From the IMG/VR virus record IMGVR_UViG_3300028991_000009, positions 1-13,495 of that record: DNA of 13,495 nt. One strand, 5' to 3'. Source of the DNA: a virus. Its lineage: Duplodnaviria > Heunggongvirae > Uroviricota > Caudoviricetes. The stretch's first letter is position 1; each line of letters begins with the position of its first letter. The position numbers and the translations under genes are program-made. This document shows positions 9,396 to 9,918 of the stretch, piece after piece. Under the pieces are notes generated by a model. It had not been told where the DNA came from, made no database searches, and saw only the letters and a list, made by a program, of their open reading frames with translations.

Positions 9396-9424
9396 AAAAA
9401 AAACCTGCCAAAGCAGGTTTTATT
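9396..9424 (-). terminator. Intrinsic terminator, probably bidirectional, between the lipoprotein gene and the tape-measure gene
   Basis: A(8) (9396-9403) / cctgc(9404-9408) / caaa / gcagg(9413-9417) / tttt(9418-9421). On the minus strand the stem is followed by eight U; on the plus strand by four U. Confidence 0.65.
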
Positions 9425-9441
9425 CATCAGCATATTATTGA

Positions 9442-9855
9442 TTAACTTTCAGGTACCAGTCCGGGGTTCAGACTTTCCGGACTCAGCGTATACATACCGC
9501 CATTGAATGGGGCCACAAGCAACCAGCCAACAATACCGCCAAAGACAAAGTTACCACCAATGTACCATCCATTAGCCGATGCCTTGATCGGCAGCGTTAC
9601 AGGCTGATAATTCTCTTTGCTGAATGTGATCTGATAACTCTTTTTCCCGAAGTAACTGCCGTCAGATTTTTCAAGTGTTACATTCTGCGGTGTTTTGCCC
9701 GAAGAAATTGTTTTCCCTGACTCATCTTTAATAATAAAATCCGCGCCAGCTGGATTACTGTTTACCTGAACAGTCTGCGTTTTATCTCCGACAATGGTTG
9801 CACACCCCGTCAGAAAAAAGACTGCTGAGAAAATCAACGGCATGAGTTTTTTCAT
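9442..9855 (-). CDS. Predicted lipoprotein with a PEGA-like domain and a C-terminal glycine-rich hydrophobic segment; cargo gene inserted between T and H
   Basis: 137 aa. Signal peptide with lipobox MKKLMPLIFSAVFFLTGC. PEGA-like pattern VNSNPAGADFIIKDESGKTISSGKTPQNVTL...Y. C-terminal GWYIGGNFVFGGIVGWLLVAPFNGG. SD GGAG is 7 nt upstream. AT-rich relative to its neighbours and absent from the canonical lambda T-H junction. Confidence 0.8.
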   Translation of the reverse strand: MKKLMPLIFSAVFFLTGCATIVGDKTQTVQVNSNPAGADFIIKDESGKTISSGKTPQNVTLEKSDGSYFGKKSYQITFSKENYQPVTLPIKASANGWYIGGNFVFGGIVGWLLVAPFNGGMYTLSPESLNPGLVPES

Positions 9856-9918
9856 AAAATGACTCCGTTCAGTTAATTTCCTCCGACGTTACTTTAATAA
9901 ATCCACAAGGAATCAATA

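What the first reader, a model, noticed from the sequence alone, without database searches (positions are those of the whole stretch)
9396..9918. PEGA-like lipoprotein gene inserted between G-T and the tape measure gene
Lambda has no gene between T and H. Here a 137-aa lipoprotein gene (lipobox LTGC with Ala at +2, suggesting outer-membrane sorting) lies there, AT-rich relative to its neighbours and followed by a strong terminator placed directly on the tape-measure RBS. It is not recognisably Bor, Cor or Lom. A surface lipoprotein cargo gene is a candidate for superinfection exclusion, serum resistance or receptor masking. I found no convincing independent promoter in the 63-nt upstream spacer, so it may be expressed only by read-through or from a promoter inside T.
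Basis: partly seen in the sequence, partly recalled or inferred. Interest (0 to 1): 0.7.

Follow-up and report, generated by a model that had tools for sequence, protein, structure and literature searches.

The report
Lipoprotein cargo gene in tail operon
A prophage of the HK97/Stx-phage tail type carries an extra, horizontally acquired gene for an outer-membrane lipoprotein of unknown function in the slot where phage HK97 keeps its superinfection-exclusion gene; this is a well-known kind of phage cargo ("moron"), so it is a good candidate for experiments but not a surprise.

Summary
On the minus strand, a 137-aa lipoprotein gene (9442-9855; lipobox LTG|C, Ala at +2; 44% GC against 57% in its neighbours) lies between tail gene T and the tape-measure gene. 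A hairpin and U-run follow it, 5 nt from the tape-measure RBS.

It is a moron. About 1,245 complete E. coli genomes share the flanks and only 5 hold the gene. Phage HK97 keeps its gene-15 moron, a superinfection-exclusion gene, in the same slot with the same layout.

The protein belongs to phrog_6823 and is 67% identical to epsilon34 gp15. This family is large, mostly chromosomal and has no known function. Phages have captured it at four or more tail-operon junctions, and in P22-like phages in the gene16-mnt region where P22 keeps sieA.

- "PEGA" is below the Pfam threshold.
- The terminator is not specific to the insert, because empty sites keep it.
- This allele has only a weak promoter-like site.
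- Published RNA-seq shows that the phage Gally homologue is transcribed in the lysogen independently of late genes. It is 20-60-fold higher in DMEM and macrophages than in LB.

Function is untested. I favour a prophage-expressed outer-membrane lipoprotein that alters the envelope, with phage exclusion narrowly the most likely effect. It is a new member of a known kind, of moderate interest.

The parts
9919..10200 (-). T-frame part of the G-T tail assembly chaperone. This is the left flank of the insert. Its last 2-4 codons differ between filled and empty sites.
   Evidence: phrog_337 tail protein E=1.6e-39; Pfam Phage_tail_T at the same place in contigs that carry the identical lipoprotein; alignment with an empty site.
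9856..9918 (-). 63-nt AT-rich spacer (33% GC) upstream of the lipoprotein gene. It holds the SD GGAG (9866-9863) and a weak promoter-like site, TTGATT (9916-9911) - 19 nt - TAACGT (9891-9886).
   Evidence: PWM scan gives 8.1 bits; the background best per 250 nt has median 6.1 and 90th percentile 8.7. The -10-like hexamer lies 30 nt before the ATG, the same distance as the stronger promoters of other phage copies.
9442..9855 (-). Lipoprotein gene, 137 aa. Signal peptide residues 1-17 (9855-9805), lipid-modified Cys18 (9804-9802), beta-sandwich about residues 25-94, invariant Gly-rich hydrophobic motif residues 95-122, short C-terminal strand and tail.
   Evidence: Translation; phrog_6823 E=1.1e-70; AF2 model pLDDT 78.5, above 90 over the sandwich; conservation; dN/dS 0.09-0.21 among alleles at this junction.
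9396..9421 (-). Intrinsic-terminator-like hairpin (stem-loop 9400-9421) with an 8-U run (9403-9396). It is shared with related prophages that lack the lipoprotein gene.
   Evidence: RNA fold -15.4 kcal/mol, z=-2.96; present in the empty site of E. coli 2003-3014; same layout as the annotated terminator after HK97 gene 15.
6136..9390 (-). Tape-measure gene with its RBS (GGAG 9390-9387, ATG 9378, 1080 aa). This is the right flank of the insert.
   Evidence: Pfam TMP_3, Phage_HK97_TLTM and Tape_meas_lam_C on the same gene in contigs that carry the identical lipoprotein; N-terminus MATLRELI as in the HK97 tape-measure protein.

Best explanation
This is a moron: a small, horizontally acquired, AT-rich cassette inserted between T and the tape-measure gene of an HK97/Stx-phage-type tail operon. 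It plays no part in building the virion.

Inferred pathway for the product, from the sequence and the established lipoprotein pathway:
- It is exported by Sec.
- It is lipid-modified at Cys18 by Lgt, LspA and Lnt.
- With Ala at +2 and no Lol-avoidance Asp, Lol carries it to the inner leaflet of the outer membrane.
- There a transthyretin/PEGA-like beta-sandwich hangs just under the membrane. An invariant Gly-rich hydrophobic hairpin (NGWYIGGNxxFGGxIGWxxVDPFNGGMY) either dips into the membrane or grips a partner.

Expression: the gene is transcribed in the lysogen from its own promoter, which is good in most phage copies and weak in this allele. During lytic growth it is also transcribed by read-through of the antiterminated late transcript.

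Likely effect: it changes the envelope of the lysogen. The effect I rank first, at about 0.35, is superinfection exclusion at the entry step. It would block an outer-membrane receptor from the periplasmic side, or block the channel that incoming tail or ejection proteins build across the periplasm.

Shown: the insertion, the family membership, the lipoprotein signals, purifying selection and lysogen transcription of a homologue. Inferred: outer-membrane location, expression of this allele in the lysogen, and any phenotype.

The confidence of 0.55 is for the general statement (a prophage-expressed outer-membrane lipoprotein that acts on the envelope). That it is a moron carrying a phrog_6823 lipoprotein is about 0.9.
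For: Insertion:
- The flanks occur in 1,245 of 5,426 complete E. coli genomes, and the insert in 5 of them. Ninety-two phage records share the flanks and none has the insert. The alignment defines the joints.
- GC is 44% against 57%.

Same slot and layout as the HK97 gene-15 moron:
- HK97 reads T stop, 58 nt, ORF, terminator, 12 nt, tape-measure start MATLRELI. That gene is a prophage-expressed exclusion protein (PMC3594210).
- A third, unrelated membrane-protein moron sits at the same junction in a Pantoea prophage.

Family:
- phrog_6823 E=1e-70; 67% identity to epsilon34 gp15, Gally gp14 and 720R6.
- 2,067 50%-identity clusters at E<=1e-10.
- Ordinary chromosomal neighbourhoods in Photorhabdus, Lonsdalea, Erwinia, Chromohalobacter and Enterobacter.

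Repeated capture by phages, always co-oriented with the delivery genes:
- T/H, H/M, K/I and I/J junctions.
- The gene16-mnt region of P22-like phages, where P22 keeps sieA, in 67 of 80 IMG/VR loci.

Lipoprotein signals are invariant in 120 cluster representatives.

Selection: dN/dS is 0.09-0.21 among T/H alleles.

Expression of the Gally homologue (PMC9928086 S1 Table), in log2(fpkm+5):
- 4.8-6.2 in LB stationary phase.
- 9.4-11.0 in DMEM and in macrophages, close to the C2 repressor.
- The adjacent upstream injection-protein genes stay at 2.5-4.2.

Precedents for lipoprotein exclusion genes inside structural clusters: the mEp phages (PMC11893012), and Ltp, which targets the tape-measure protein (cited).
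Against: - No member of the family has a tested function. PADLOC has no match.
- The phage copies keep every invariant motif of the chromosomal family. This suggests they do whatever the cellular protein does, not a phage-specific job.
- Slots in late operons may reflect where insertions are tolerated, not what the cargo does. The P22-like 'ant moron' also holds regulators.
- This allele lacks the conserved TAGGAT -10 box and the 5'-UTR hairpin of other copies. Its best promoter-like site is within background.
- This allele has Ala115 where 119 of 120 cluster representatives have Asp (the remaining one did not match the search pattern).
- The hydrophobic segment (Kyte-Doolittle about 1.5 over 19 residues) could in principle hold the protein in the inner membrane.
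Confidence: 0.55

Rival explanations
1. Same protein and same location, but the benefit has nothing to do with phages. It would be a lysogenic-conversion factor that supplies E. coli with an envelope function the species otherwise lacks (stress tolerance, serum or macrophage survival, outer-membrane homeostasis), as Bor and Lom do.
For: - The family is mainly a stand-alone chromosomal gene across Gamma- and Betaproteobacteria, with all motifs conserved in the phage copies.
- Only 27 of 5,426 complete E. coli genomes have any copy.
- The Gally homologue rises 20-60-fold in DMEM and inside macrophages relative to LB stationary phase.
Against: - No phenotype is known for any member.
- Recurrent placement next to DNA-delivery genes in two unrelated virion types, including the HK97 gene-15 slot and the P22 region that holds sieA, fits exclusion slightly better.
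Confidence: 0.3
2. In this allele the gene is expressed only with the late operon and serves the lytic cycle. As with T5 Llp, it would mask receptors or the envelope late in infection, so that progeny are not lost on debris and the infected cell is not superinfected.
For: - The gene is co-oriented with the late genes, has no terminator upstream, and has a good SD (GGAG, 7 nt before the ATG).
- Its promoter-like site is only background level (8.1 bits).
- The conserved promoter and 5'-UTR of other copies are missing.
Against: - Homologues carry good promoters (9.9-12.3 bits), and one is transcribed while the late genes are silent.
- The -10-like hexamer of this allele sits at the same distance from the ATG as theirs.
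Confidence: 0.1
3. A passenger on its way out. The gene is functionally dead or neutral in this prophage, having lost its promoter and carrying a damaging Asp115Ala change.
For: - Ala115 stands where 119 of 120 cluster representatives have Asp. The near-identical allele L096 still has Asp.
- The promoter is weak.
- Most related prophages have only the terminator without the gene, which is compatible with repeated loss.
Against: - The ORF is intact.
- dN/dS is 0.09-0.21 among alleles at this junction.
- The exact protein is listed in 44 blocks of the assembly collection.
Confidence: 0.08
4. A tail-assembly or virion protein specific to this tail type.
For: Only its position inside the tail operon.
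Against: - It is absent from more than 99% of otherwise near-identical tail modules.
- It is a lipoprotein with a cleavable signal peptide.
- Homologues are chromosomal in non-phage contexts and sit at several different junctions.
Confidence: 0.02

Closest known systems
HK97 gene 15 moron (gp15 superinfection-exclusion protein; Juhala 2000, Cumby 2012)
   Same: - Identical slot (between the T-type chaperone and a tape-measure protein that starts MATLRELI).
- Same layout: about 60-nt spacer, small ORF, hairpin terminator, then the tape-measure RBS within 5-12 nt.
- The cargo is an envelope protein with bacterial chromosomal relatives.
   Different: - The sequences are unrelated (phrog_5031 against phrog_6823).
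- gp15 is a 62-aa inner-membrane protein with one membrane helix. This one is a 120-aa mature lipoprotein predicted to go to the outer membrane.
- gp15's function is demonstrated; this one's is not.
Salmonella phage epsilon34 gene 15, phage Gally gp14 and phrog_6823
   Same: True homologues: 67% identity over the full length, with the same lipobox and motifs. They are also cargo inside a late operon ('ant moron', PMC2629481). The Gally copy is transcribed in the lysogen.
   Different: - They sit in podophage genomes, between the ejection-protein gene and mnt.
- They carry a conserved TAGGAT/TAAGAT -10 box and a 5'-UTR hairpin that this allele lacks.
- Their function is unknown too.
P22 SieA
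   Same: In P22-like phages the homologues of this gene lie in the gene16-mnt region where P22 keeps sieA. None of the 80 IMG/VR loci that carry the lipoprotein has a P22-type sieA.
   Different: There is no sequence relationship. SieA is a polytopic inner-membrane protein encoded on the opposite strand.
Lipoprotein exclusion proteins: T5 Llp, phi80/N15 Cor, mEp Lpp021 and Lpp010, S. thermophilus Ltp
   Same: Small phage-encoded lipoproteins, some of them inside structural gene clusters. They block a receptor or the tape-measure-dependent entry step.
   Different: No sequence match appeared in Pfam, PHROGs or the phage collection, and no fold match in BFVD. These proteins have no broad chromosomal family like this one. 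The comparison with T5 Llp and Cor rests partly on my own knowledge.
Lambda Bor and Lom
   Same: Moron-encoded outer-membrane proteins expressed from the prophage.
   Different: Bor aligns only over the signal peptide and the first strand (hhalign probability 60%, 29 columns). Lom does not align at all. They also occupy different positions in the genome.
Pfam PEGA (PF08308), transthyretin-like clan
   Different: The score is below the gathering cut-off. Only 14 of 51 relatives match at E<0.01. The invariant C-terminal Gly-rich motif has no Pfam match at all.

Membership tests
Moron (Hendrix/Juhala definition) | An extra gene between two genes that are adjacent in related phages | tested here: met
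   The flanks are contiguous in 1,240 E. coli genomes and 92 phage records. T and H overlap in lambda and are 19 nt apart in HK022.
Moron (Hendrix/Juhala definition) | Base composition different from the surrounding genes | tested here: met
   44.4% GC (spacers 33-38%) against 55-60%.
Moron (Hendrix/Juhala definition) | Own promoter | tested here: inconclusive
   The window allele's best site scores 8.1 bits, within background. Other phage copies score 9.9-12.3 bits at the same distance from the ATG.
Moron (Hendrix/Juhala definition) | Own terminator | tested here: inconclusive
   A hairpin and U-run follow the gene, but empty sites have them too. In HK022-type tails the hairpin is present only when a moron is present.
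Moron (Hendrix/Juhala definition) | Expressed from the repressed prophage | not testable with these tools
   No data exist for this allele. The Gally homologue is transcribed at near-repressor level in DMEM and macrophages while the late genes are silent (PMC9928086 S1 Table).
Bacterial lipoprotein (signal peptidase II substrate) | Positively charged start, hydrophobic core, lipobox [LVI][ASTVI][GAS]C | tested here: met
   MKK / LMPLIFSAVFF / LTG|C. A lipobox followed by CATIVG or a close variant was found in the 120 cluster representatives scanned.
Bacterial lipoprotein (signal peptidase II substrate) | Actual lipid modification and cleavage | not testable with these tools
   This needs globomycin sensitivity or palmitate labelling.
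Outer-membrane (Lol-sorted) lipoprotein of Enterobacterales | No Asp at +2 (Lol-avoidance signal absent) | tested here: met
   +2 Ala, +3 Thr. The sorting rule is from established knowledge. Localisation itself was not tested, and the hydrophobic segment 97-115 is a caveat.
Pfam PEGA (PF08308) | Score at or above the gathering cut-off of 20.8 bits | tested here: not met
   18.2 bits, E=0.0024. The best among 51 relatives is E=5.5e-4.
Pfam PEGA (PF08308) | Transthyretin-like beta-sandwich fold | tested here: met
phrog_6823 / epsilon34 gp15 family | Full-length profile match and shared motifs | tested here: met
   E=1.1e-70 over residues 3-136; 67% identity to epsilon34 gp15; invariant CATIxG and NGWY...GGMY motifs, apart from Ala115.
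Lambda Bor (PF06291) | Sequence or profile similarity beyond the signal peptide | tested here: not met
   No Pfam hit. hhalign aligns only 29 columns, covering the signal peptide and first strand.
Lambda Lom / Ail family | Profile similarity | tested here: not met
   hhalign probability 0.4%.
Cor (phi80/N15/HK022) | Sequence similarity | not tested
   No direct comparison was made. No Cor-type family appeared in the PHROGs or Pfam scans at E<=1.
HK97 gp15 / YebO family | Sequence homology | tested here: not met
   The two fall in different PHROGs (phrog_5031 against phrog_6823), with a different size and topology.
Superinfection-exclusion proteins (functional class) | Expression blocks infection after or at adsorption, independently of repressor immunity | not testable with these tools
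   Only positional analogy is available.

The most novel reading that the evidence does not exclude
The family would be an unrecognised, widespread class of envelope-acting phage-exclusion lipoproteins. It would be a conserved proteobacterial outer-membrane lipoprotein that lambdoid siphophages (at four or more tail-operon junctions) and P22-like podophages (in the region where P22 keeps sieA) have captured repeatedly. From the periplasmic face of the outer membrane it would stop incoming phages from building their DNA-delivery channel. Expression would be switched on by host-like conditions (DMEM, macrophages) through a conserved promoter and a 5'-UTR hairpin that covers the SD.
Probability: 0.3. 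Interest if true: 0.6.

Novelty: new member of a known kind. Interest (0 to 1): 0.38.

Why it matters
Morons are the main route by which temperate phages change their hosts, and most moron proteins have no known function. This family is large (more than 2,000 clusters at 50% identity) and is absent from Pfam as a family. Two unrelated virion types have taken it up next to their DNA-delivery genes. In the one lysogen with data, it is induced to repressor-like levels in macrophage-type conditions.

If it proves to be an exclusion or envelope-fitness factor, that would give a function to a broad set of 'hypothetical lipoproteins' in Enterobacterales, Pasteurellaceae and Halomonadaceae. It would also add a third, independent cargo to the T/tape-measure hot spot first seen in HK97. 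For this particular window the finding is ordinary. It is a textbook moron, in a weak-promoter allele with an unusual Asp115Ala change.

Tried and rejected
- **Family libraries.** NCBIfam matched only signal peptides. PADLOC gave nothing. Rfam gave nothing in the window. Pfam on the isolated C-terminal motif gave nothing even at E<=10.
- **Source names.** Names for distant relatives were all 'hypothetical'. I did not adopt the JGI label 'YceK' or the RefSeq label 'putative periplasmic lipoprotein', because no Pfam hit to any family other than PEGA supports them.
- **Conserved chromosomal neighbours.** The only 'neighbours' shared by many loci were antisense ORFs overlapping the gene itself. 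Real neighbours differ between genera.
- **Terminal inverted repeat.** An 11-nt inverted repeat lies at the two ends of the insert (9433-9443 and 9911-9921). It looked like a possible transposition or recombination signature, but it is not conserved in the JNEC-KY202 or L098 alleles. I treat it as chance.
- **Terminator as part of the insert.** I rejected this as stated, because empty sites carry it. Whether it is a relic of an older moron remains open.
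Full report
**1. What is in the sequence**

The window is the tail region of a lambdoid prophage, read on the minus strand. It runs through head-tail connector genes, the major tail protein, G (10224-10646), T (9919-10200), the gene in question (9442-9855), the tape-measure gene (ATG at 9378, ending at 6136), then M, L, K and I.

- The ORF encodes 137 aa beginning MKKLMPLIFSAVFFLTG|CATIVGD. This is a textbook signal-peptidase-II signal with Ala at +2.
- Its GC content is 44.4% and the two spacers are 33-38%, against 55-60% for the tail genes around it.
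- After the stop codon comes a 9-bp hairpin with an 8-U run (-15.4 kcal/mol, z = -2.96). Five nucleotides later comes the GGAG of the tape-measure RBS.
- Lambda has no gene here, because T and H overlap.

**2. It is an insertion, and the slot is a known one**

- The flanking 200 nt occur at 90-95% identity in 1,245 of 5,426 complete E. coli genomes. Only 5 of these have the gene.
- None of the 92 phage records that share the flanks, mostly Stx-converting phages, has it.
- Alignment with an empty site places the joints in the last few codons of T and at the stop codon of the lipoprotein gene.

The better comparator is HK97 and not lambda. Its tape-measure protein starts with the same MATLRELI. 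Its gene 15, the element for which the word "moron" was coined, lies between the T-type chaperone and the tape-measure gene with the same layout. That layout is T stop, 58-nt spacer, small ORF, hairpin terminator, 12 nt, tape-measure ATG (PMC3594210). HK97 gp15 is expressed from the prophage and blocks DNA entry.

A Pantoea prophage (L006) has yet another cargo at this junction: a 158-aa protein with two hydrophobic segments that belongs to phrog_8032. The T/tape-measure junction is thus a recurrent landing place for envelope-protein cargo.

**3. The terminator**

The hairpin and the RBS behind it are also present in the empty sites, so they are not a special feature of this insertion.

- In HK022-type tails the virgin junction has no hairpin. 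Hairpins appear only where a moron is present (L006 and L009).
- The 15-nt spacer before the hairpin in the empty site is homologous to the 3' untranslated region of the lipoprotein gene.

The orphan hairpin in about 1,240 E. coli genomes may therefore be the relic of a lost cargo gene. It could equally be the joint at which cassettes are exchanged. I could not decide between these two. Either way, a terminator at this position is harmless in lytic growth, because late transcription in lambdoid phages is antiterminated (established knowledge).

**4. What the protein is**

- Pfam gives only a sub-threshold PEGA match (18.2 bits against a cut-off of 20.8). Only 14 of 51 relatives match PEGA at E<0.01.
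- PHROGs places the protein firmly in phrog_6823, of unknown function (E = 1e-70).
- The only phage genomes with a homologue are P22-like: epsilon34 gene 15, Gally gp14 and vB_EcoP-720R6, each 67% identical.
- An exhaustive profile search finds 2,067 clusters (at 50% identity) at E<=1e-10. Every source name I recovered was "hypothetical", "lipoprotein" or "PEGA domain-containing".

The AlphaFold model (mean pLDDT 78.5) has three parts:
- a confident beta-sandwich at residues about 25-94;
- a low-confidence hydrophobic, Gly-rich stretch at 95-120;
- a confident final strand that packs back on the sandwich.

Fold searches return only generic transthyretin-like, carboxypeptidase-regulatory and CnaB sandwiches. 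No solved relative exists.

The most conserved part of the family is the stretch NGWYIGGNxxFGGxIGWxxVDPFNGGMY. It has no Pfam match. Because the C-terminus returns to the sandwich, I read this stretch as a membrane-dipping or partner-binding hairpin and not as a membrane-spanning helix. This is inference. Bor matches only over the signal peptide, and Lom does not match.

**5. Where the family lives**

In Photorhabdus (next to murJ), Lonsdalea, Erwinia/Pantoea, Chromohalobacter and Enterobacter the gene is a stand-alone chromosomal gene. Its neighbours are ordinary and differ between genera. E. coli has no core copy: only 27 of 5,426 complete genomes have any detectable copy.

In phages it always has the orientation of the late genes. 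It sits at:
- T/H: this window, five E. coli genomes, L009, and a second lineage only 69% identical (L101-L107);
- H/M: L006;
- K/I: L007;
- I/J: L021, L025 and L026;
- P22-like phages, between the last ejection-protein gene and mnt.

Of the 80 best IMG/VR loci, 67 lie between the ejection-protein genes and mnt, ant or the tailspike gene of P22-like phages, 11 are at T/H, one follows K and one is unclear.

The P22-like position is the region that holds sieA in P22 (PMC10883804). None of the 80 loci has a P22-type sieA.

**6. Expression**

Upstream of this allele the best sigma-70-like site is TTGATT-19-TAACGT at 8.1 bits. That is below the 90th percentile (8.7) of the best site per 250 nt in the window.

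Other phage copies have better sites (9.9-12.3 bits), with the -10 box 29-33 nt before the ATG. In many of them a conserved TAGGAT/TAAGAT box is followed by a hairpin whose 3' arm is the SD. The window's weak -10-like hexamer lies at the same distance from the ATG. Its SD is good and no terminator lies upstream, so the gene must at least be made from the late transcript.

Published RNA-seq of E. coli LF82 gives direct data for the Gally homologue, LF82_139 (PMC9928086, S1 Table). Values are log2(fpkm+5).

| Gene or condition | Value |
|---|---|
| LF82_139, LB stationary phase | 6.2 and 4.8 |
| LF82_139, the two DMEM samples | 9.8-10.5 |
| LF82_139, macrophages at 1 h | 11.0 |
| LF82_139, macrophages at 6 h | 9.4-9.5 |
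| Three injection-protein genes upstream, all conditions | 2.5-4.2 |
| C2 repressor, all conditions | 8.9-12.0 |

The authors' 5-fold cut-off in LB missed the gene, and they described Gally as devoid of morons. Their table shows an independently transcribed, condition-regulated cargo gene. This evidence does not transfer automatically to the window allele, whose 5' region is different.

**7. Is it under selection?**

Alleles at the T/H junction differ with dN/dS of 0.09-0.21. Nearly all amino-acid changes fall in the signal peptide or the C-terminal tail.

The window allele has Ala115 in the VDPFNGG motif. In 119 of 120 cluster representatives this residue is Asp, and the remaining one did not match the search pattern. 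An allele that is otherwise identical in protein sequence, L096, has Asp. The exact Ala115 protein is listed in 44 blocks of the assembly collection, so it is a circulating variant. Whether it is impaired is unknown.

**8. Mechanism and rivals**

That this is a moron carrying a phrog_6823 lipoprotein I hold at about 0.9.

*How it most likely works.* The protein is exported, lipidated and sent by Lol to the inner leaflet of the outer membrane. There the sandwich and its Gly-rich hairpin act on the envelope of the lysogen. All of this is inferred.

*Which phenotype.* I rank superinfection exclusion at the entry step first, at about 0.35. The reasons are:
- the HK97 gene-15 slot;
- the P22 region that holds sieA;
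- the recurrent association with DNA-delivery genes in two virion types;
- lipoprotein precedents: Llp and Cor (from my own knowledge), Ltp, and the mEp Lpp proteins.

A phage-independent envelope or host-fitness role is almost as likely, at about 0.3. Phage copies keep every family motif, and the Gally copy is induced in macrophage-type conditions. A purely late, Llp-like role is about 0.1, a decaying passenger about 0.08, and a virion role about 0.02.

**9. Verdict**

This is a real feature and it was correctly described, but it is an ordinary kind of thing. It is a new member of the well-known class of tail-operon morons, in a slot with a famous precedent, and it carries a catalogued but uncharacterised protein family.

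The value of the finding lies in the family and not in this locus. The family is large, unnamed, repeatedly captured by phages and demonstrably expressed in at least one lysogen.

Noticed in passing
window 4463-5599 (-), with AT-rich flanks 4265-4462 and 5600-5801: A second moron lies in the same tail operon: a 378-aa OmpC-like porin gene (44% GC; upstream gap 26% GC) between M and L. It belongs to phrog_410 and Pfam Porin_1. It is absent from JNEC-KY202 and from some contigs that carry the identical lipoprotein, so the two cargo genes come and go independently. At least 80% of this stretch is present in 93 of 5,426 complete E. coli genomes, where it is annotated 'ompC' between phage tail genes.
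   Followed up: partly
window 9396-9421; L004 about 1580-1630 (empty site): The terminator-like hairpin in front of the tape-measure RBS is kept in about 1,240 E. coli genomes that have no gene between T and the tape-measure gene. HK022-type junctions without cargo have no hairpin. It may be the scar of a lost moron or a cassette-exchange joint.
   Followed up: partly
window 9511-9513 (codon 115 of the lipoprotein): This allele has Ala where 119 of 120 cluster representatives have Asp (VDPFNGG), and the remaining one did not match the search pattern. The allele in L096 is identical in protein sequence apart from this residue, where it has Asp. The effect is unknown.
   Followed up: partly
L001 4930-5000, L003, L021, L026, L100, L106, L008, L011, L018 (upstream of the family gene); absent from the window: Many phage copies and some chromosomal copies share a -10 box, TAGGAT/TAAGAT, followed by a 5'-UTR hairpin (for example GTTTCC...GGAAAC, ATTTCC...GGAAAT, CTTTCT...GGAAAG). 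Its 3' arm is the Shine-Dalgarno sequence. The outer pair changes on both sides between copies. This may be a translational or stability control element, which would fit the condition-dependent expression of the Gally copy. No formal covariation test was run.
   Followed up: partly
L006 2883-3359 (+): A Pantoea prophage has a different cargo at the T/tape-measure junction: a 158-aa protein with two hydrophobic segments (phrog_8032, unknown function) followed by its own terminator. It carries the lipoprotein family gene one junction further on, between the tape-measure gene and M.
   Followed up: partly
L006 6424-6450 compared with window 9379-9403 and L009 6440-6483: After the terminator, the copy at the H/M junction in L006 has ATGCCCGGAGAAAGC in front of M. 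This nearly matches the tape-measure RBS block (CGCCCGGAGAAAGG) of the window. It suggests that the cassette can move together with the downstream RBS of its former neighbour.
   Followed up: no
window 9433-9443 and 9911-9921: An 11-nt imperfect inverted repeat (TATTATTGATT / AATCAATATTA) lies exactly at the two ends of the insert. It is not conserved in the JNEC-KY202 or L098 alleles, so it is probably chance in AT-rich sequence.
   Followed up: partly
PMC9928086, Table 1 compared with S1 Table (Gally prophage sheet): The paper states that Gally has no morons, based on a 5-fold cut-off in LB. Its own table shows GALLYPH_13 and GALLYPH_14 (the homologue of this gene) rising to repressor-like levels in DMEM and macrophages.
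   Followed up: yes
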